This document shows positions 2,068 to 22,439 of a stretch of DNA of 64,000 nt, piece after piece. Within the stretch, counting starts at the first letter, position 1; each line of letters opens with the position of its first letter. The notes beneath the pieces are model-generated. The model had not been told where the DNA came from, searched no databases, and saw nothing but the letters and a program-made list of their open reading frames with translations. The position numbers were made by a program, and so were the translations under genes. Source of the stretch: a virus; IMG/VR virus record IMGVR_UViG_3300008110_000034, positions 96,001 to 160,000 of that record. One strand, 5' to 3'.

Positions 2068-4542
2068 TTAAATTGTAAATGGTTGTCTAACTGGCGGTGT
2101 TACAGGTACTACAGTTCCTTTATTATCTACTACATTTTTCTCACCAGTTTGGTTAGTTTTAGTAATAGCAGCAAGAACATTAGCTTGTGTCTGTTCCCAT
2201 GTGGGAGGATTATCCGAAGCAACTGCAAGAGAAGGTGTAGCAGGAGCTTCATCTTTAAGTTCTTGTATCATTCTTCGTGTCATACTTAATTGCTGTACAA
2301 ATTTACCCCTAGAAAAATTACTAACAATAGTTTGAACTTTATAAAGTCCGCTGTACTCTGCTACTAATTTATCCGGACCAAATTCGTAAAATCCGGTATT
2401 TTCATTCAAATCAACTGGTGTTCTAAAATTTAAAACTAAATCTACTTCGCCACTTTGATAATCTATAGTACCGTCTGCATTAATATTAATTAAGCTTGTT
2501 TCTGGTGCAGTATAATTACCCATTCCACTATCACCAAGATAGTACGGATCTCCGATAATTTCCATATCAACAGCAAGCATGTCTGCGCCTTCAGTTAAAA
2601 TATCATGGAACTGTCTGGCGATTCGTGTTTCTACAGTTTCAATTCCGCCACCGCCGGCGTTATCAGTACGAGTACTAATTGCATCGTATCTTCGTTGAGT
2701 GCCCATTGAGTTATCTGGTATCACTGTATTCCCAGTAGAATTTTGTGCTCTTTCTACTGTTTCGTCAACTGCGCCGCTTTCTTGTGTTTGTTTTTTAACA
2801 TCTTGATTAAGAATACCAGAATCAGCAGTATAACTTTGATAAAAGCCTGCGTTAAAGTGCATGTTAAAACTTAAAACATCTAGATTTTTACCGGTAAACA
2901 CATAGTTGTATTCTTTAATTGCTTGTTTTTTAAGTTTATCAATCCCTGGAGGAGGTGTATTAGGTGGCATAAATCTACTCGAGTGTACTAGATACGGCAC
3001 TATCCTATATACTATTATTTTAGGTTTCTCTCCAGTTTGTCCTAAGTTAGCATCAGTTGATTTATTGTAAACTTGTGTTTCAATTCTCCACCAAGGAATC
3101 ATTCCTTCATTAGTAATTTGATTATTACTAGTTGCTTGTCTAGCATAATCGCTTTGTAAAATAACTTGATTGATTACATTGGTTATATTGCTACCCTGTT
3201 TAAATCTAAAATCAGAAGTGTTTACTGGACTTACAACTCCTGCTCGATTATAATATCCGCTTGATTCATTGTATGCAGCATTATCTTTGGCAAATTCTTT
3301 ATCAGCTGCTCGAGAACTATCAAATGCCATCTGAGCTGATCCAATTTTGTTTACTGAGGATTGAGTGTAATATGCAGAATCCCCTCCCTTGCTAATTCCT
3401 AATTTGTTTTCAATAGTAGTTGCAGCACCTACTTGATTAGGATTCGTTGTAGCAGAGGTTGTTGATGTTGTTGATACGTTGCCTGTTGTTTTTAAATCTG
3501 TAGGAAATAAAATTACAACTTCATCAGGAACAGAAACCTGAGCTTGTGTGTCTTTATTTGCAGTTTCTCTAATTCTATCATTTATTTGTTTTTGAAGACT
3601 CTTTGGTCCTGATTGCAACATTTCTTGTACTGTTGCTCCAGCAATGTTAACTTCTGTCAGTAGCATTGAGTAAGAATCTGCGAACCCTTGTTCGTTCCAT
3701 GGGTATGCTTCAACTGCATATGTTGCACCTTTAGCATCAACTGCCATCTCAACTTCTCTTAATTTTAAAGGAATATATCGAGTAGTTCCTGGTATATTAA
3801 CTGATGTATTATCGCTGTCTACATGCCCTGCAAATTCAATTTTAAGTAAAAAAGGTGCTGTAAGATAATTTTGATGTCCGGCATTTTTAGCTGCAATTTG
3901 GATAGCCTGCATAAACAATCCCATGCTATAAGTTTCTGTAATTTGAAAACTTAATCCAGTAGCATTTGTATTTCCTGTAGTTTTATCAAACCCCATTGCG
4001 CCTTCGATACGCAAATTATCCATAAAGAAATCAAATTTTCCCGAAGGGTTATTCTGTGTTGTTATAGCTGTAGGGATTCTGTTATCCGGAAGTCCGCTAC
4101 CGCTTCTAAGGACGATAGTGTTTGGACGAAATATTCCTTTTCGATATGTTTCATCAGGAAAATTAATTTCTTCATCAGTCAATACCGACAGGGTAAAAAT
4201 GTAGTTTACTGTAGAGTAAACACCTAAAATGTTAGGAAACGGTGGCGTTTCATTTATAGGGACTATAGTTTTTTCTGCTGCGCTGTATTCTGATAACTTT
4301 CCAACATCTGCTAACTCTGAAATTTTAACATTAGGTAAGGAAGGAATCCCTGGTAAATTATTAGCTGCTATCTGCTTTAATGCATTGCCGCCGGCTGATA
4401 CTAGATCTTTAACATTTCCAGAAACTGACAGATTCTTTGCTAGTCCTGTATTGCCTACTGTAGTATTACTGCCAGTTGATGCTGTAGTTGCACCTGGGTA
4501 ATTAGGGCTTGTATAGCCTGGAGGGAAAAAACCTGGTGGCAT
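2068..4542 (-). CDS. Baseplate hub protein (gp27/gp44-like)
   Basis: 824 aa; C-terminal MEIIGDPYY...SGLYKVQTIVSNFSRGKFVQQLSMTR is typical of contractile-tail hub proteins; between the gp53-like and gp5-like genes. Confidence 0.6.
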   Translation of the reverse strand: MPPGFFPPGYTSPNYPGATTASTGSNTTVGNTGLAKNLSVSGNVKDLVSAGGNALKQIAANNLPGIPSLPNVKISELADVGKLSEYSAAEKTIVPINETPPFPNILGVYSTVNYIFTLSVLTDEEINFPDETYRKGIFRPNTIVLRSGSGLPDNRIPTAITTQNNPSGKFDFFMDNLRIEGAMGFDKTTGNTNATGLSFQITETYSMGLFMQAIQIAAKNAGHQNYLTAPFLLKIEFAGHVDSDNTSVNIPGTTRYIPLKLREVEMAVDAKGATYAVEAYPWNEQGFADSYSMLLTEVNIAGATVQEMLQSGPKSLQKQINDRIRETANKDTQAQVSVPDEVVILFPTDLKTTGNVSTTSTTSATTNPNQVGAATTIENKLGISKGGDSAYYTQSSVNKIGSAQMAFDSSRAADKEFAKDNAAYNESSGYYNRAGVVSPVNTSDFRFKQGSNITNVINQVILQSDYARQATSNNQITNEGMIPWWRIETQVYNKSTDANLGQTGEKPKIIVYRIVPYLVHSSRFMPPNTPPPGIDKLKKQAIKEYNYVFTGKNLDVLSFNMHFNAGFYQSYTADSGILNQDVKKQTQESGAVDETVERAQNSTGNTVIPDNSMGTQRRYDAISTRTDNAGGGGIETVETRIARQFHDILTEGADMLAVDMEIIGDPYYLGDSGMGNYTAPETSLININADGTIDYQSGEVDLVLNFRTPVDLNENTGFYEFGPDKLVAEYSGLYKVQTIVSNFSRGKFVQQLSMTRRMIQELKDEAPATPSLAVASDNPPTWEQTQANVLAAITKTNQTGEKNVVDNKGTVVPVTPPVRQPFTI

Positions 4543-5819: not shown

Positions 5820-5848
5820 TTGACAAAATTAAGTGCATAGTTTATAAT
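5820..5848 (+). promoter_or_regulatory. Consensus sigma70 promoter for the gp55-gp47-gp46 operon
   Basis: TTGACA (5820-5825), 17 bp spacer, TATAAT (5843-5848); 20 nt upstream of ATG 5869. Confidence 0.85.
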
Positions 5849-5868: not shown

Positions 5869-6696
5869 ATGACCGTAAAAATCAATTATCTTAACAATAA
5901 AGACTTATTAGACGAAATACACAAATCAAAAAATACATATTCCAGCTATTCTAAACCAGAATATCACAGATATGATATAATTTTACCGCATGTTGACAAA
6001 ATTAATATTCGAACAATCGCAGAAGCTAAACGTAACCAAGCGAAAAGACTTGGTCAAATAGAATATGAACGACGTAAAGCTGCCAAGGAAAAAGTAAAAC
6101 AAGCCGACTGCGAAGTTGATTACAAAAAAATTCTGAAAACTGATTTGGTTTTTAGAATCATGACTTACGATCATATTCCATTAAACGCCACTAGAAAAAA
6201 GAATCCTAAAACAACTGCTGATGGCAGGGACAAAGTAAACTTTCCTCCATTCCAACACTGGAAATTTGACGAAAACGACATACTAGTGTGTGTAGGAAAA
6301 AGCCACTGGAAGGGCGATCTAGAAAAAGGAAAGTTCAGTAAGGATCATGGACAAATAACAAATACCCTAGCCCGAATGTATATTAAACTTTGCGAACGTT
6401 ACGCCACACGAGGTAATGTTAGAGGTTATACATACAACGATGAAATGCGCGGACAGGCTATTTTACAACTAACACAGATAGGACTACAATTCGATGAGTC
6501 AAAGTCAGATAATCCTTTTGCTTATTTCACTGCTGCTGTTACTAATAGCTTCGTTCGAATAATCAATATTGAAAAAAGAAATCAAAGTATTAGAGACGAC
6601 ATACTGGAAATAAACGGAATGAATCCTAGTTATACTAGAACGGGGCAGGCAGAGTATGCTGCTGCTTCAAAGCGAAACGAGGGGTACGATGACTAA
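5869..6696 (+). CDS. gp55: Late-transcription sigma factor, T4 gp55-like
   Basis: N-terminal YLNNKDLLDEI and C-terminal RGYTYNDEMRGQAILQL...FDESKSDNPFAYFTAAVTNSFVRIINIEKR; sits directly upstream of gp47/gp46 as in T4-like phages. Confidence 0.8.
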   Translation: MTVKINYLNNKDLLDEIHKSKNTYSSYSKPEYHRYDIILPHVDKINIRTIAEAKRNQAKRLGQIEYERRKAAKEKVKQADCEVDYKKILKTDLVFRIMTYDHIPLNATRKKNPKTTADGRDKVNFPPFQHWKFDENDILVCVGKSHWKGDLEKGKFSKDHGQITNTLARMYIKLCERYATRGNVRGYTYNDEMRGQAILQLTQIGLQFDESKSDNPFAYFTAAVTNSFVRIINIEKRNQSIRDDILEINGMNPSYTRTGQAEYAAASKRNEGYDD

Positions 6697-7702
6697 CCTG
6701 TTTAAGAAAGCAGCGTGTTTCACTGACATACATTTTGGGTTAAAATCAAATAGCAGCATACACAATCAAGACTGCGAAGATTTTGTAGACTGGTATATTA
6801 CTAAAGCAAAGGAGGAAGGCTGTGATACTGGAATTTTTCTCGGCGATTGGCATCATAATCGCAACAGTCTTAATATCACTACGATGGATTATAGCCTTAG
6901 AGCCCTTGAAAAACTGGGCCAAGCTTTTGATCAATTTTATTTTTTTCCTGGTAATCACGATCTTTATTACAAAGATAAACGGGATATACATAGTGTAGAA
7001 TTTGGAAAGTACATTCCTGGTATTACAGTTGTACACAAACCAGTAACCATAGGTGATGTAACAATGTGTCCGTGGTTAGTAGGCGATGAATGGAAAACTA
7101 TTGGCAAGTCAGGGGGCAAATACATCTTTGGCCACTTTGAATTGCCGACGTTTTTTATGAATGCCATGGTGCAGATGCCGGACCACGGAGACATTAAATT
7201 AAGCGATTTTCAAAACTATGAATTAGGATTCAGCGGACATTTTCATAAACGTCAGCAACAAAAGAATATGATTTATATTGGCAATGCATTCCCGCACAAT
7301 TACGCAGATAACTGGGACGACGATCGTGGAATGATGGTACTTGAATGGGGTAAGCAACCTGAATACCATACATGGCCAGGGCAACCTACATTTAGAACTA
7401 CTAAGCTTAGTGACTTGATTGATCGTGCAGAAGATATTATACTACCTAAAGCACATCTTCGTGTTAGCTTAGACATTGACATCAGCTACGAAGAAGCTAG
7501 TTTTATTAAAGAAAAATTTATGGGCGATTATGACATTAGAGAACTTACTCTAATTCCCGAAAAGAAAGAAATTGAAATCAATACCAATATTGATATTCGA
7601 GCATTTGAATCAGTAGATCAAATAGTGTCCAGTCAACTAGTAAACATAGAAAGCGAGACATATGATTCAAAAGTTTTACTATCAATCTACAATAATCTAT
7701 GA
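6689..7702 (+). CDS. gp47: Recombination endonuclease subunit (Mre11/SbcD-like)
   Basis: Metallophosphoesterase motifs DIHFG, GDWHH, GNHD, GHFE, SGHFH. Start taken at ATG 6689, overlapping the gp55 stop. Confidence 0.92.
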   Translation: MTNLFKKAACFTDIHFGLKSNSSIHNQDCEDFVDWYITKAKEEGCDTGIFLGDWHHNRNSLNITTMDYSLRALEKLGQAFDQFYFFPGNHDLYYKDKRDIHSVEFGKYIPGITVVHKPVTIGDVTMCPWLVGDEWKTIGKSGGKYIFGHFELPTFFMNAMVQMPDHGDIKLSDFQNYELGFSGHFHKRQQQKNMIYIGNAFPHNYADNWDDDRGMMVLEWGKQPEYHTWPGQPTFRTTKLSDLIDRAEDIILPKAHLRVSLDIDISYEEASFIKEKFMGDYDIRELTLIPEKKEIEINTNIDIRAFESVDQIVSSQLVNIESETYDSKVLLSIYNNL

Positions 7703-9480
7703 TTAAAATAAAAAATCTAACTGTTAAAAATTTTATGAGTGTGGGTAATCAAACCCAAGCTGTAGATTTTGAACGAGAGCAATTAACACTTGTACTAGGC
7801 GAAAATCTAGACATGGGCGGCGACGATGGTGGCAGTCGCAACGGAACTGGTAAAACTACTATTGTCAACGCCTTAAGCTATGCATTATTTGGTCAAGCAT
7901 TGACAAATATTAAAAAAGACAATCTAATTAATAAAATTAACAATAAGAATATGTTAGTTACCCTGTCTTTTGAAAAAGATGGAATAGATTATAGGATTGA
8001 ACGAGGACGTAAACCTAATATCTTAAAGTTTTATATCAACGATGTAGAACAAGAAGGCGATGAAACCGACGACGCTCAAGGAGATATGCGCGAAACGCAA
8101 AAAGATTTAGACGATCTTTTAGGTATGAGTCACGATATGTTTAAACATATTGTAGCTCTTAATACCTACACTGAGCCGTTTTTAAGTATGCGAGCTAATG
8201 ATCAGAGATCAATTATTGAGCAACTATTAGGTATAACTCTTCTAAGTGAAAAAGCAGAGTCGCTAAAAGAGCAGATACGAGAAACTAAAGAACAAGTGCA
8301 GCAAGAAAACGCAAACATTGAAGCTGCAAAAAAGTCAAACGAAAAAATTGAACAAAGCATTGCTGGGTTAGAGACTAGAAAGTCAGCTTGGCATAATCAA
8401 AGAGAGATTGATTGTCTTAAACTAGCTGAAAAAATTGTTGAACTACAGTCAGTTGATATAGAAAAAGAACTAGAGCAACATGCAAAATTAAAAAGTTATG
8501 ACGAACTGGCAGCAAAAATAAAAAGTTTAAACAAAGAAAAGGCTACGCTAGAAACTGCAATTATACAGGCAGATAAGACTGTTAAAAAATATGAAAAAGA
8601 AGTAGAAAAACTTAAAGATCATAAATGTCCATCATGCGAACAAATGCTGCAAGATCACAAGCATGACGAAATGAAAATTTTAGCAGAAAAAAATCTAGAA
8701 GATGCGTGTACTTACTTAGAAAGTGTATCTAACAATTATGCACAGACTGTAAAAGAACTTGAAGAGATAGGTGATATTAACGGCAGACCTTCAACTTTTT
8801 ACGATACTATTGAAGAAGCACTTAAACATCAAAACAATCTTGAAAGTTTAATAGAATCTTTAGGTAAAAGACAACAGGAGACTGATCCCTATACTGAACA
8901 AATTGAAGATTTAAAAAATACTGCCTTACAAGAAATTACTTGGGATCAAATAAACGTCTTGAATAATCTTAAAGAGCACCAAGAGTTTCTGTTAAAATTA
9001 CTGACTAACAAAGATTCTTTTATTCGTAAAAAAATTATAGATCAGAATTTAGCTTATCTAAACAACAGGTTGTCGTTCTACTTAGACAAAATGGGCTTAC
9101 CGCATCAAGTAACATTCTTAAATGACTTAAATGTAGAAATTACACAACTAGGTCAAGATTTAGATTTTGATAATTTAAGTAGAGGCGAACGAAATAGACT
9201 TATACTAGGCCTAAGTTGGAGCTTCCGAGATGTATGGGAAAGCTTATATCAGAATATTAATCTGTTATTTGTTGATGAACTTATTGACAACGGTCTAGAT
9301 GCAATAGGTGTTGAAAATGCTCTTGGCGTCTTAAAGAAGATGGCTAGGGAACGTAATAAAAACATCTATCTAATCAGTCATAAGGATGAGTTAGTAGGGC
9401 GTGTAAACAATGTTTTAAAAGTTATTAAAGAAAACGGGTTCACATCTTATTCTTCAGATTTAGAGATTTTAAATGACTAG
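7699..9480 (+). CDS. gp46: Recombination ATPase subunit (Rad50/SbcC-like)
   Basis: Walker A NGTGKTT, coiled coil with zinc hook CPSC, signature LSRGE, Walker B LFVDE, H-loop ISH. Confidence 0.93.
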   Translation: MIKIKNLTVKNFMSVGNQTQAVDFEREQLTLVLGENLDMGGDDGGSRNGTGKTTIVNALSYALFGQALTNIKKDNLINKINNKNMLVTLSFEKDGIDYRIERGRKPNILKFYINDVEQEGDETDDAQGDMRETQKDLDDLLGMSHDMFKHIVALNTYTEPFLSMRANDQRSIIEQLLGITLLSEKAESLKEQIRETKEQVQQENANIEAAKKSNEKIEQSIAGLETRKSAWHNQREIDCLKLAEKIVELQSVDIEKELEQHAKLKSYDELAAKIKSLNKEKATLETAIIQADKTVKKYEKEVEKLKDHKCPSCEQMLQDHKHDEMKILAEKNLEDACTYLESVSNNYAQTVKELEEIGDINGRPSTFYDTIEEALKHQNNLESLIESLGKRQQETDPYTEQIEDLKNTALQEITWDQINVLNNLKEHQEFLLKLLTNKDSFIRKKIIDQNLAYLNNRLSFYLDKMGLPHQVTFLNDLNVEITQLGQDLDFDNLSRGERNRLILGLSWSFRDVWESLYQNINLLFVDELIDNGLDAIGVENALGVLKKMARERNKNIYLISHKDELVGRVNNVLKVIKENGFTSYSSDLEILND

Positions 9481-9718
9481 TGATATTCACGAACAAATAA
9501 TTAGAACCTTTATAAAATATTTTGAGGCGAATCAGCGTTGGGAAACTAAACAGACGCATACTTCAGGCATTGAAGCTAGGGCACTGCTATCTGAAATTAG
9601 AAGATTAGCTACAATTAGACGAGTAGAAATAGGCGAAGTAAGAAAAAACAAACCAAAAATTAAATCACCAAAATACAAACAATCACTTTTACAGGACAAA
9701 CAAGACGACGAGGCATAA
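9473..9718 (+). CDS. Small basic protein, possibly histone H1-like (Hc1-type) DNA-binding protein
   Basis: 81 aa; WETKQTHTSGIEARALLSEIRRLATIRRVEI resembles, by eye only, the F..KGNKAAGTRARKAL.E..KL.K.RR.EI pattern of Hc1-like proteins. Confidence 0.35.
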   Translation: MTSDIHEQIIRTFIKYFEANQRWETKQTHTSGIEARALLSEIRRLATIRRVEIGEVRKNKPKIKSPKYKQSLLQDKQDDEA

Positions 9719-9723
9719 ACAAG

Positions 9724-10188
9724 TTGATGTCATGGTATTATCAAAATCAACTTGTTACAGAATTGCCTGAAGACTGTGTGGGATTCGTGTATCTTATCAC
9801 TAATACAGCTACAGGCAGAAAATATATAGGCAAAAAACTGGCAAAATTCAGTAAAACTAGCTATAAAACAGTAACACTTAAAAACGGTACTAAAAAAAAG
9901 AAACGCATTAAGTCAAAAATAGACTCCGATTGGCAAAAATACTATGGCTCAAACGACAGGCTCAATCAAGATGTTACAACATTAGGTCCTGATCGCTTTC
10001 TCAGAGAAATTCTCTTTTACTGTAAAAGCAAGTCAGAATGTAGTTATATTGAAGCAAGAGAACAATTTGATCGTAGAGTTCTCGAAACTGACGACTACTA
10101 TAATGGCATAATCAATGTACGTGTAGGCAGTTCACCATCGCTTAGACAGGCTCTTCTAGAACACAATTTAAAATCATCTAACACTTAA
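9724..10188 (+). CDS. Minimal GIY-YIG endonuclease
   Basis: GFVYLITN...KYIGKK, YYGS, conserved Glu (YIEAREQ) and YYN; 154 aa with no recognisable C-terminal DNA-binding domain. Confidence 0.85.
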   Translation: MMSWYYQNQLVTELPEDCVGFVYLITNTATGRKYIGKKLAKFSKTSYKTVTLKNGTKKKKRIKSKIDSDWQKYYGSNDRLNQDVTTLGPDRFLREILFYCKSKSECSYIEAREQFDRRVLETDDYYNGIINVRVGSSPSLRQALLEHNLKSSNT

Positions 10189-10189
10189 G

Positions 10190-10560
10190 GTTAGCGGGCC
10201 AGTTTGTAATACCGCTGTGGAAAAACCGACGTAAGAAATCGGACACGTAACATATTGATGCACTCCCGTGGAGTTAATCCACTATCCTGAAAAATTGGAA
10301 GCGAGTCAGAGGGTTCGAACCATATGCCCAACGCATTGATATAGTATGAATGTTAGCATACGAAAAACCGTGCTATAAAAACTTAGACACTAGGAACGAG
10401 GTCTAAGGCGCTTTTTAAGCGTATCGACGTAGGTTGGGAAAGGTCAGAGCCCATTAGTACACGGTAAAAACACCTACTTCCACGTATGGCTGGGGCAACT
10501 CACATGAAAATTGGAACCTGTAGGAGGTTCCGTTTGACCTAAACAATCTACATGAATTTT
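10190..10560 (+). ncRNA. Putative large structured non-coding RNA (family unassigned)
   Basis: No ORF of 60 aa or more in 10189-10680. At least ten helices found by eye, e.g. 10193-97/10212-16, 10252-61/10333-42 (tandem G-U), 10268-72/10278-82, 10344-48/10357-61, 10382-88/10401-07, 10429-34/10472-77, 10513-19/10525-31. Boundaries approximate. Confidence 0.6.
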
Positions 10561-10565
10561 AAACA

Positions 10566-10653
10566 GTTATCACATACGTGATAACTTCTAATTATATCAT
10601 TAAATAAAGAAAAGCTCGAGCGTTAGCGAAGAGCAGATGAACGCAGTTCATCT
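10566..10653. repeat. Cluster of short inverted repeats
   Basis: GTTATCAC-atac-GTGATAAC (10566-10585), GCTC...GAGC (10614-10634), AGATGAAC-gca-GTTCATCT (10635-10653). Confidence 0.7.
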
Positions 10654-10680
10654 TAAATCATTCTAAATAAATAAAATATC

Positions 10681-10980
10681 ATGAGAATTTCTGATCTTAT
10701 CGCTGAAGCTGGTCCTACTAGTTATGTACCCGCTAGTCCTGGAAGCCCTATTGTGGTGCCTACTCCACTAACACCACCAGCTACACCTACACCAAGTCCT
10801 AGTGCGCCTGCACCAACACCTTCAGGTCCTGATCCTGATAAAAGAGCAGAACGTCGCAGTAAGGTAGAGCGAGGTAGAAAAATACAGAGAAAAATACAGT
10901 CAGGTAAAAATTATCTAATTGATCTAATTCAAGAACGTAGGAACGAGCCTGCATACAATAAGCTGGGCAGAGCTATTTAA
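10681..10980 (+). CDS. Hypothetical Pro-rich protein (probable N-terminal part of a frameshifted gene)
   Basis: MRISDLIAEA start preceded by TAAATA; Pro/Thr-rich tract; the -1 frame opens at 10962 and continues into the next ORF. Confidence 0.55.
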   Translation: MRISDLIAEAGPTSYVPASPGSPIVVPTPLTPPATPTPSPSAPAPTPSGPDPDKRAERRSKVERGRKIQRKIQSGKNYLIDLIQERRNEPAYNKLGRAI

Positions 10981-21931: not shown

Positions 21932-22020
21932 TAAATACTATGTCTATTATAGAACTCAGCAATGAGACTTATGCGGTAGCCCGCCGCGTAGACTTAGAAC
22001 GTCAACATAAAGGAGAAAAC
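21932..22020 (+). promoter_or_regulatory. Late promoter plus structured 5' leader
   Basis: TAAATA 21932-37; CTCA-GCAA-TGAG (GNRA hairpin, 21955-66); GCGG-TAGC-CCGC (21973-84); GTCTA/TAGAC closing helix (21942-46/21989-93); SD AAGGAG near 22010. Confidence 0.45.
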
Positions 22021-22022
22021 AA

Positions 22023-22439
22023 ATGGGACGCCCTCTTAACAAAAGACACTTCGGGTCTTTAAGCAACGAAAATCCAGATCAATCAATCAAATGTAACTTC
22101 CACGATGGAACTGCTATTAGACAGGATAGAAATATTCTAAAGCAGACAAGTCGTAATAAATTTGCTTGTAAAAACAATACCACAGGTTCTAACTCAGCCG
22201 TTACTACAATTGAAGCAGAAATAACTGCTGGTACAGCATTTGTCTGTACTAATGTTGACGTAGCAACTGGTTCATTAACTGCTGGACAAATGAATATTAT
22301 TGGTGCCGTAGTTGGCGCAGGATCTGTTAGAGTTAAAAGACTAACAGCGCACTATGCATACGACTGGAGTGACAATCGTTATACATGGACTGTTGACGAC
22401 GATTCAACATCGACACAGTTAACATTAACCGCAGTATAA
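22023..22439 (+). CDS. Hypothetical virion-associated protein
   Basis: 138 aa starting MGRPLNKRHFG; strong SD; first gene of the fibre block. Confidence 0.6.
   Translation: MGRPLNKRHFGSLSNENPDQSIKCNFHDGTAIRQDRNILKQTSRNKFACKNNTTGSNSAVTTIEAEITAGTAFVCTNVDVATGSLTAGQMNIIGAVVGAGSVRVKRLTAHYAYDWSDNRYTWTVDDDSTSTQLTLTAV

What the first reader, a model, noticed from the sequence alone, without database searches (positions are those of the whole stretch)
9724..10560. Minimal GIY-YIG nuclease immediately followed by a ~370-nt ornate RNA: candidate RNA-partnered nuclease system
Seen in sequence: the longest non-coding gap in the window starts 4 nt after the stop of a 154-aa GIY-YIG protein and is dense with helices. 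These include AGCGG/CCGCT (10193/10212), CCGA/TCGG (10226/10239) and a 10-bp long-range ATATTGATGC/GCATTGATAT (10252/10333) with tandem G-U pairs that work only on the + strand. That helix encloses GTGGA/TCCAC and a T-loop-like GG-UUCGAA-CC. Further helices are GTATG/CATAC, CTTAGAC/GTCTAAG, TGGG/CCCA and GGAACCT/AGGTTCC. Two long-range pairings cross each other, suggesting a pseudoknot: CCGTG-CTA/TAG-ta-CACGG (10368/10455) and GTAGGT/ACCTAC (10429/10472). AGGTCA/TGACCT (10441/10535) is another long-range pairing. The helices are linked by A-rich joiners. Established: GIY-YIG homing nucleases such as I-TevI and Seg proteins carry separate DNA-binding domains, which this protein lacks, and compact RNA-guided nucleases (IscB, TnpB) have their RNA beside or overlapping the gene. 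Inference: protein and RNA may be co-transcribed partners, such as a guide/scaffold RNP, a ribozyme or a phage ornate RNA. It does not match tRNA, tmRNA, RNase P or group I/II cores as I recognise them.
Basis: partly seen in the sequence, partly recalled or inferred. Interest (0 to 1): 0.85.

Follow-up and report, generated by a model that had tools for sequence, protein, structure and literature searches.

The report
Twin-box phage RNA beside nuclease gene
The 470 gene-free bases behind a small GIY-YIG nuclease gene of this uncultured giant T4-like lake phage encode a real, knotted non-coding RNA that carries one 7-letter word twice. It is not the nuclease's dedicated guide, and its job is still unknown.

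Summary
Window 9727-10188 encodes a 154-aa SegE-type GIY-YIG protein, and 10189-10657 is a structured + strand RNA, about 100 nt longer than reported. It is conserved in about 300 uncultured phage loci. On 76 distinct relatives the fold is 89.8% paired, with 862 compensatory cells against 267 in shuffles (0/500). The T-loop-like hairpin and AGGTCA/TGACCT are not.

The RNA matches no Rfam family. Its 3' core is homologous to the uncatalogued extension of RNAs whose 5' third is Rfam Polynucleobacter-1, and this window has a different 5' body. Earlier agents of this scan met the same "twin-box" family on other DNA.

Two boxes (10502-08 and 10550-56, ACAUGAA here) are identical in 183 of 188 distinct RNAs across 17 words, and they change together.

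The nuclease-partner reading is not supported:
- The RNA occurs without GIY-YIG. A PDDEXK nuclease or unrelated genes sit upstream, and one locus has its own promoter.
- GIY-YIG homologues occur in complete phage genomes that lack the RNA.

Best reading: a stand-alone RNA whose two boxes are read by one complementary strand. That strand was not found, so the function is unknown.

The parts
9727..10188 (+). GIY-YIG nuclease gene. 154 aa counted from the TTG at 9724; the ATG at 9727 is the likely start. Catalytic domain only, no second domain found.
   Evidence: Pfam PF19835, E 1.7e-32. PHROG 447 and homing-endonuclease PHROGs. Translation.
10189..10657 (+). Whole twin-box RNA: 5' body, pseudoknotted core and 3' hairpins.
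   Evidence: The iterated nhmmer profile covers 10189-10657. About 300 loci carry it. Covariation.
10189..10342 (+). 5' body of the 'window type'. It comprises hairpin 10193-97/10212-16 with a near-invariant 14-nt loop, hairpin 10226-29/10239-42, and the closing helix 10252-61/10333-42. The closing helix encloses 10268-72/10278-82, 10285-87/10297-99 and 10311-14/10326-29.
   Evidence: No RF01718 hit. A profile of this body does not hit major-type RNAs.
10344..10361 (+). Hairpin GUAUG/CAUAC with a conserved UGUUAGC loop. The loop may pair with 10490-93.
   Evidence: The stem has 4 of 5 compensatory pairs and is 100% paired. The loop pairing is 86.8% paired with mostly one-sided changes. The equivalent pairing in the major type has 6 compensatory pairs.
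10368..10464 (+). Long-range helix 10373-75/10455-57, with a weaker 10368-72/10460-64. It encloses hairpins 10382-88/10401-07 and 10409-13/10417-21.
   Evidence: helices 11-14.
10426..10477 (+). Knotted core of three mutually crossing helices: 10426-28/10443-45, 10429-33/10473-77 and 10435-38/10450-53.
   Evidence: helices 15-17: 100%, 100% and 97% paired, each with compensatory changes.
10502..10508 (+). Box 1 (ACAUGAA), preceded by an invariant CUC.
10512..10532 (+). Conserved hairpin between the two boxes (UGGAACCU/AGGUUCCG).
   Evidence: 99.6% paired, with G-U changes on one side only (helix 18).
10550..10556 (+). Box 2 (ACAUGAA), preceded by an invariant UCU.
10565..10586 (+). Variable hairpin. 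Here it has a 9-bp stem; most relatives have a short UUCG-capped stem.
   Evidence: Sequence and alignments.
10587..10613 (+). A/U-rich spacer of variable length.
   Evidence: 72-78% A+T in the 40-nt windows at 10540-10619. Alignment.
10614..10653 (+). Two 3' hairpins. The first is 10614-17/10631-34, with a conserved GAGCG..AGCGAA interior. The second is 10635-42/10646-53.
   Evidence: The last hairpin has 8 of 8 compensatory pairs (helix 24).
10667..10674 (+). AATAAATA, a T4-type late-promoter-like box between the RNA and the next ORF (10681-10980).
   Evidence: Sequence. ATAAATA-like words recur just after the 3' hairpin in relatives (columns 630-700).

Best explanation
This is a stand-alone structured non-coding RNA of the 'twin-box' phage family, not a cofactor of the neighbouring nuclease.

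Expression (inferred). In this phage it is made as the 3' end of the early gp47-gp46-o81-nuclease transcript. In other phages it has other upstream genes or its own promoter. A late-promoter-like box that follows it argues against a role as leader of the next gene.

Fold (shown). It folds into a 5' body, a core of crossing helices and two 3' hairpins.

Working parts (inferred). The active elements are the two 7-nt boxes that flank a conserved hairpin. They change often between relatives, yet stay identical to each other, so both are most likely read by base pairing with one and the same complementary strand. The fixed differences next to the boxes fit this. CUC against UCU before them, and mostly G against A after them, are all transitions. 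One partner of the form 5'-U w' U z' A U y' x' GGG U-3' could therefore pair with about 12 nt at either box using G-U wobbles.

Who the partner is (open). It was not found in the RNA, in the flanks or in the phage DNA searched. My odds:
- a trans RNA or DNA of phage or host, about 0.3
- the template DNA strand of the RNA's own gene, giving an R-loop as in ColE1 RNA II or the T4 origins, about 0.2
- alternative pairing inside the RNA, about 0.1
- a protein, about 0.1
- something else, the remainder

The nuclease gene sits in a slot where free-standing endonuclease genes turn over.
For: The RNA is real: about 300 loci, 188 distinct sequences; covariation, 0/500 shuffles.

It is a + strand RNA: U-G/G-U pairs are conserved in 10256-57/10337-38 and in the 10512/10532 pair.

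It is independent of the nuclease.

Box identity: 183 of 188 distinct RNAs across 17 words. The top mutual-information pairs are identities with no exception. On a tree built without the box columns the word changes at least 50 times. Independent pairs on supported branches change the same way 14/14 (x), 6/6 (y), 9/9 (z) and 7/7 plus 2 unchanged (w).

Flanks: -3, -2 and -1 are C/U, U/C and C/U in 187 of 188. Position +7 is G/A in 126. The only non-identical class is box 1 G with box 2 A.

Against: No complementary strand was found. It is not inside the RNA. It is not within several kb of flank in 183 loci. It is not a repeated motif of the 181-kb record. The predicted partner words seen in five related records lie in non-homologous contexts and occur at chance frequency.

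G000 is only about 51% complete, and hosts are unknown.

No expression data exist. The RNA ends, any processing and the single-strandedness of the boxes are inferred.

GIY-YIG is adjacent in 207 of 304 loci, and a second nuclease family fills the same slot. A looser functional link to a nuclease is therefore not excluded.
Confidence: 0.55

Rival explanations
1. RNA-partnered nuclease. The RNA scaffolds or guides the adjacent minimal nuclease, and the variable boxes act as short guides. GIY-YIG and PDDEXK would be interchangeable effectors.
For: GIY-YIG is adjacent in 207 of 304 loci, and upstream within about 1 kb in 62 more. A non-homologous PDDEXK_15 nuclease fills the same slot in L216, L091, L249 and L206. 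The protein has no detectable DNA-binding domain. The boxes are variable segments between invariant flanks.
Against: The RNA occurs with phosphorylase-like, amidoligase-like or unknown neighbours, and with its own promoter. GIY-YIG homologues are present in 445 cultured-phage records. Three complete genomes that carry one lack the twin-box signature. Five metagenomic GIY loci lack the RNA. Seven nucleotides is too short for a DNA guide. Turnover of endonuclease genes in one intergenic slot is typical of free-standing homing endonucleases (established knowledge of T4 seg and mob genes).
Confidence: 0.1
2. Origin or R-loop RNA. Box 1 of the nascent RNA pairs with the template strand at box 2, where the sequence is the same. 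This holds a persistent RNA-DNA hybrid next to the A+T-rich stretch, primes or marks DNA replication, and works like ColE1 RNA II or T4 oriF/oriG.
For: It explains why the two boxes must be identical without any separate complementary element. The only tolerated mismatch, box 1 G with box 2 A, would be an rG-dT wobble. An A+T-rich stretch follows box 2. The locus lies in an early operon beside the recombination and replication genes gp46/gp47, 4-5 kb from a strand switch and a local minimum of cumulative GC skew. T4 origins use transcripts that form R-loops in A+T-rich unwinding elements, lie near strand switches, and oriE carries direct repeats (PMC3016281). The ColE1 G6/C6 precedent is from my own knowledge.
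Against: The invariant CUC/UCU flanks would give rC-dA mismatches, so the hybrid would be only 7-8 bp. Nothing in this model explains the need for a 470-nt multiply knotted fold. Transcription is convergent just downstream. The skew shift coincides with a change of gene orientation. There are no replication data.
Confidence: 0.2
3. Cis-acting leader or conformational switch. The 5' segment after the first hairpin (UGUGGA, 10216-21) pairs alternately with box 1 or box 2 and so controls the downstream gene.
For: GUGG/UCAC is 100% paired in all 76 window-type RNAs, and the same segment can pair with UCUACA at box 2. The major type has CUGGA at the same place, and there y is mostly G.
Against: The pairs are invariant within each type, so there is no covariation. 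Major-type RNAs with y = C keep CCUGGA. This pairing covers only x and y, not z and w. The downstream genes belong to unrelated families and sit behind their own late-promoter-like box.
Confidence: 0.1

Closest known systems
Polynucleobacter-1 RNA motif (Rfam RF01718; Weinberg et al. 2010, PMC2864571)
   Same: In the commoner ('major') type of this RNA family the first 141 nt are RF01718: L041 scores 121 bits, L024 112, L033 88, L006 83 and L240 64, against a cut-off of 37. The window's RNA shares the 3' core with those RNAs. A search with the window sequence alone already hits them from about position 296 onward, E down to 3e-12. The 5' plan is also similar. It has a hairpin with a long conserved loop, a second hairpin, and a closing helix around two hairpins that include the shared ACUAUCC...GGA(A/C)G motif.
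   Different: The window gives no RF01718 hit, even at E<=10, and its 5' body profile does not find major-type RNAs. RF01718 covers only the first third. The knotted core, the twin boxes and the 3' hairpins are uncatalogued. Rfam and the 2010 paper list the motif as an orphan from Burkholderiales and fresh water, not as a phage RNA.
Large ornate orphan RNAs often carried by phages (GOLLD RF01998, ROOL RF03087)
   Same: Several hundred nucleotides long, with many covarying helices and pseudoknots. Phage-borne, non-coding and of unknown function.
   Different: No Rfam match to any of them. None is known, to my knowledge, to carry two short words that co-vary by identity.
T4 Seg-type free-standing GIY-YIG homing endonucleases (SegE family, Pfam PF19835)
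   Same: The neighbouring protein matches the family's GIY-YIG domain end to end. It sits in an intergenic slot of a T4-like genome, and in some relatives another nuclease family occupies that slot.
   Different: At 154 aa it has no recognisable DNA-binding domain. It is far more widespread and syntenic than a typical mobile gene: over 600 metagenomic loci and 445 cultured-phage records. No cleavage data exist.
ColE1 RNA II and the T4 oriF/oriG origin transcripts
   Same: These are transcripts that act on their own template. In ColE1, an upstream RNA segment pairs with template DNA downstream where the sequence is repeated (my own knowledge). T4 origins combine a promoter with an A+T-rich unwinding element, and oriE has direct repeats (PMC3016281).
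   Different: No evidence here for a hybrid or an origin. The T4 origin transcripts are not known to be elaborately folded.

Membership tests
Rfam RF01718 Polynucleobacter-1 | Covariance-model score at or above the gathering cut-off (37 bits). | tested here: not met
   No hit in the window at gathering, at E<=10 on 9700-10750, or in the whole 181-kb record. Positive control: five major-type relatives score 64-121 bits.
Rfam RF01718 Polynucleobacter-1 | Architecture: 5' hairpin with a conserved loop, a second hairpin, and a closing helix around internal hairpins. | tested here: inconclusive
   The window's 5' body has an analogous plan and shares the ACUAUCC...GGA motif. The order of hairpin and closing strand differs, and sequence profiles do not cross-detect.
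Twin-box phage RNA (scan-internal name; extended Polynucleobacter-1 family) | Homologous 3' core detectable by sequence profile. | tested here: met
Twin-box phage RNA (scan-internal name; extended Polynucleobacter-1 family) | Two identical 7-nt boxes, preceded by CUC and UCU, flanking a conserved hairpin. | tested here: met
   Window 10499-10508 and 10547-10556. Family statistics.
RNA-guided nucleases with an adjacent guide or scaffold RNA (IscB/TnpB type) | Obligate co-occurrence of nuclease and RNA. | tested here: not met
RNA-guided nucleases with an adjacent guide or scaffold RNA (IscB/TnpB type) | A variable guide of useful length (about 16 nt or more) at one end of a conserved scaffold. 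| tested here: not met
   The only variable single-stranded segments are internal, 7 nt long and duplicated. Other variable parts are self-complementary hairpins.
Free-standing GIY-YIG homing endonuclease (Seg type) | GIY-YIG catalytic domain. | tested here: met
   PF19835, E 1.7e-32. Motifs visible.
Free-standing GIY-YIG homing endonuclease (Seg type) | A separate DNA-binding domain. | tested here: not met
   The single Pfam domain covers residues 4-130 of 154. No informative match to a solved structure.
Free-standing GIY-YIG homing endonuclease (Seg type) | Cleaves the endonuclease-free allele and spreads by gene conversion. | not testable with these tools
   Needs mixed infections or in-vitro cleavage assays.
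Group I intron carrying a GIY-YIG ORF | Match to the intron core, and an interrupted host gene. | tested here: not met
   No RF00028 hit at E<=10. The flanking ORFs (o81 and the downstream genes) are complete and unrelated, and the downstream genes belong to different families in different loci.
R-loop origin transcript (T4 oriF/oriG, ColE1 RNA II) | A transcript that forms a persistent hybrid in an A+T-rich unwinding element, with origin activity. | not testable with these tools
   Only circumstantial: an A+T-rich stretch after box 2 and a nearby skew minimum.

The most novel reading that the evidence does not exclude
The twin boxes are a programmable address, a short sequence written twice that recognises a nucleic-acid target purely by base pairing. 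On this reading the RNA is one of two things. It could be a self-templating R-loop maker that marks a replication start. Or it could be the targeting subunit of a new RNA-directed system in which interchangeable small nucleases (GIY-YIG or PDDEXK) are the effectors. The boxes would change quickly because they track a changing target.
Probability: 0.2. Interest if true: 0.9.

Novelty: new variant of a known kind. Interest (0 to 1): 0.66.

Why it matters
A 470-nt, multiply knotted RNA is shared by hundreds of uncultured giant T4-like phages of lakes. That makes it one of the more widespread phage non-coding RNAs with no known function. Only a third of one subtype is catalogued.

Its two boxes show a rare kind of constraint: identity rather than complementarity, held through at least 50 word changes. 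This points to a recognition mechanism not described for any known RNA class.

Settling it would either add an RNA-based step to phage replication or host takeover, or reveal a new programmable RNA.

For annotation, the result also warns against reading "small nuclease next to structured RNA" as an RNA-guided nuclease.

Tried and rejected
- Known RNA families. Rfam at gathering and at E<=10 gave nothing. The weak hits were miRNA, RgsA and snoRNA look-alikes on the minus strand. ARAGORN found nothing.
- Cultured phage genomes. blastn with the window RNA or with a major-type RNA found no match.
- Coding. There is no conserved ORF, and indel lengths are not in multiples of 3.
- Group I intron with an ORF in a loop. 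Rejected: no core match and no split host gene.
- tRNA-like T-loop. The GGUUCGAACC word is not conserved (L002 lacks it) and the proposed pairing is 59% paired.
- Boxes as promoters or a genome-wide motif. The word occurs at chance frequency in the 181-kb record.
- Boxes as matched stop codons or a ribosome-hop pair. No ORF enters them, box spacing varies (48-58 nt seen), and rare words such as ACAGGAA break the stop-codon reading.
- A partner inside the RNA. The conserved UUUGAUUGUUUGAA segment can wobble-pair with some words but does not co-vary, and Rfam's model pairs it elsewhere. The 5' CCUGGA segment does not co-vary within the major type.
- A partner in the flanks. None lies at a consistent position.
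- A predicted 'GGG' partner in phage genomes. The words found in three records lie in non-homologous contexts.
- Genome-contig scan for bacterial copies. None of the 120 loci returned is a true member, so nothing can be said about bacterial genomes.
- A second RNA copy in the 332-kb relative G001. There is only one twin-box locus per record (a search that was also too loose).
- Cumulative GC skew. There is a local minimum 4-5 kb upstream, but it coincides with a switch of gene orientation, so it does not bear on an origin.

Full report
**What is there.** Window 6656-9480 encodes the T4 gp47/gp46 recombination nuclease pair (Metallophos; AAA_23/SMC_N). An 81-aa ORF follows. Then comes a 154-aa protein (9724/9727-10188) that matches Pfam SegE_GIY-YIG end to end, E 1.7e-32. 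The 492 nt that follow (10189-10680) are the longest stretch of the window without an ORF of 80 aa or more. The host record is a 180,861-bp virus fragment with 36% G+C, estimated to be about 51% complete. A relative of the same family is a 331,654-bp record that is 95% complete. The phage is therefore a giant T4-like phage. The related loci came from IMG/VR viral contigs.

**The RNA is real.** I fetched 80 loci encoding relatives of the GIY-YIG protein. The window's intergenic sequence alone matched full length in L002, L003 and L062, and through its 3' part in many others. An iterated profile of 453 positions, equal to window 10189-10657, matched 69 of the 80 loci. Six of the 11 misses are contigs that end right after the gene. 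Two motif scans brought in more than 230 further loci. In all there were 305 profile hits and 188 distinct full-length sequences.

The result was 89.8% paired cells against 77.6% in shuffles, 862 compensatory cells against 267+-15, and a covariation score of 0.288 against 0.122. None of 500 shuffles reached these values, and slid controls scored 0.052 or less. Conserved U-G/G-U pairs exist only on the + strand. Indel lengths show no preference for multiples of 3.

- The RNA runs to about 10657, not 10560.
- The T-loop-like hairpin is replaced by GGGU/GCCC (10311-14/10326-29).
- AGGTCA/TGACCT is not supported (73% paired, almost no compensation). A GAC/GUC helix (10426-28/10443-45) is supported instead. 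It crosses both GUAGG/CCUAC and UGGG/CCCA, which makes a knotted core.

**Relation to known RNAs.** No Rfam family matches the window. The family has two 5' bodies joined to one homologous core. In the commoner type the first 141 nt are Rfam Polynucleobacter-1, at 64-121 bits in five loci. That motif was listed in 2010 only as an orphan from Burkholderiales and fresh water, and no later paper in the held library mentions it. The window's body has a similar plan and shares an ACUAUCC...GGA motif. The Rfam model does not detect it, however, and its own profile does not detect the other type. Earlier agents of this scan met the same family on other DNA and named it 'twin-box'. I had found the boxes before reading those notes, and I re-tested the Polynucleobacter-1 link myself.

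**The twin boxes.** The strongest mutual-information signals, apart from hairpin pairs, are identities between two columns 48 nt apart. Box 1 (10502-08) and box 2 (10550-56) read ACAUGAA here. In 183 of 188 distinct RNAs the two boxes are identical, across 17 different words. On a tree built from the core without the box columns, the word changes at least 50 times. Independent pairs on supported branches change the same way in both boxes: 14/14, 6/6, 9/9 and 7/7, with two unchanged in the last set.

The flanks are informative. CUC always precedes box 1 and UCU always precedes box 2. The letter after the box is mostly G in box 1 and A in box 2. The only non-identical class has G in box 1 and A in box 2. 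All of these differences are transitions. A single partner strand carrying GGG and U at those places could therefore pair with about 12 nt at either box. I could not find such a strand:
- not in the RNA
- not in the flanks of 183 loci
- not in the 181-kb record
- not at a homologous site in four related records

**The nuclease is a neighbour, not a partner.** Of 304 RNA loci, 207 have GIY-YIG directly upstream, 46 have a gap of 120-320 nt and 16 have a whole ORF in between. Nineteen came out as having no GIY-YIG upstream, of which three are artefacts of how the RNA start was projected. In L216, L091, L249 and L206 an unrelated PDDEXK_15 nuclease (E 1e-25 to 2.5e-29) sits between the 81-aa gene and the RNA. 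In L275 and L240 the upstream genes are phosphorylase-like and amidoligase-like.

In L116 the RNA lies in a divergent intergenic region behind a sigma-70-like promoter. Just before the RNA, only the last codons of a GIY-type gene remain, reading ...SNT-stop as in the window.

Conversely, five GIY-YIG loci in other contexts lack the RNA. GIY-YIG homologues occur in 445 cultured-phage records, mostly cyanophages. In phage Melnitz the homologue follows nrdB with no room for the RNA. Three complete genomes that carry it lack the twin-box signature, while the positive control in G000 is found.

**Transcription context.** A consensus TTGACA-17-TATAAT promoter lies at 5820-5848, upstream of the + strand block that ends with gp47 and gp46. 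No promoter-like site lies between the nuclease gene and the RNA, so here the RNA is probably the tail of that early transcript. An AATAAATA late-type box at 10667-74 separates it from the next ORF, and similar words follow the 3' hairpin in relatives. The downstream genes fall into several unrelated families with no Pfam or PHROG match. A leader function is therefore unlikely.

**Mechanism.** Shown:
- a conserved, knotted + strand RNA
- two boxes kept identical through many changes
- independence from the nuclease gene

Inferred: the boxes are read by base pairing with one common strand. The main candidates are a trans target, and the template DNA of the RNA's own gene. In the second case the RNA would form an R-loop next to the A+T-rich stretch that follows box 2, by analogy with T4 origins (PMC3016281) and ColE1 RNA II. 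The flank pattern favours a common strand over the R-loop reading. The failure to find that strand keeps both open.

Noticed in passing
window 21954-22025 (+): The only Rfam gathering-level hit in the window is freshwater-2 RNA (RF02980), 52.5 bits against a cut-off of 49.9.
   Followed up: no
L240:3911-4304 and L240:5169-5240: This phage contig carries a twin-box RNA at 8395-8840. About 4 kb upstream it also encodes a permuted tmRNA (RF04321, 92.5 bits; also matched as alpha_tmRNA) and a tRNA.
   Followed up: no
L216:3963-4481, L091:1520-2071 (-), L249:338-853 (-), L206:1201-1719 (-): A roughly 173-aa PDDEXK_15 'phage putative endonuclease' (PF24608) replaces the GIY-YIG gene in the slot between the 81-aa gene and the RNA. 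This is non-homologous nuclease turnover at one site.
   Followed up: partly
L116:4198-4320 (-) compared with window 10170-10200: About 17 nt upstream of the RNA start are conserved between L116 and the window (TCTAACAC(C/T)TAAGGTT), although L116 has no GIY gene. Either this is a remnant of a deleted gene, or the RNA's 5' end reaches into the nuclease ORF.
   Followed up: partly
window 5820-5848 (+): A perfect TTGACA-17-TATAAT promoter lies upstream of the + strand block that ends with gp47 and gp46. A local minimum of cumulative GC skew lies close by, around G000 position 102,000.
   Followed up: no
window 10681-10980 (+): The ORF after the RNA encodes a 99-aa protein with a Pro/Thr/Ala-rich low-complexity stretch and no family match. 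In relatives this position holds ORFs of 255-516 aa from several unrelated clusters.
   Followed up: partly
L436 (Methylophilales phage Melnitz, MZ577097.1) 3498-3938: The closest cultured homologue of the GIY-YIG protein (54.6% identity) sits directly after the ribonucleotide reductase small-chain gene and is annotated as hypothetical. Other records label this family 'NAD synthetase', which looks like a propagated misannotation.
   Followed up: no
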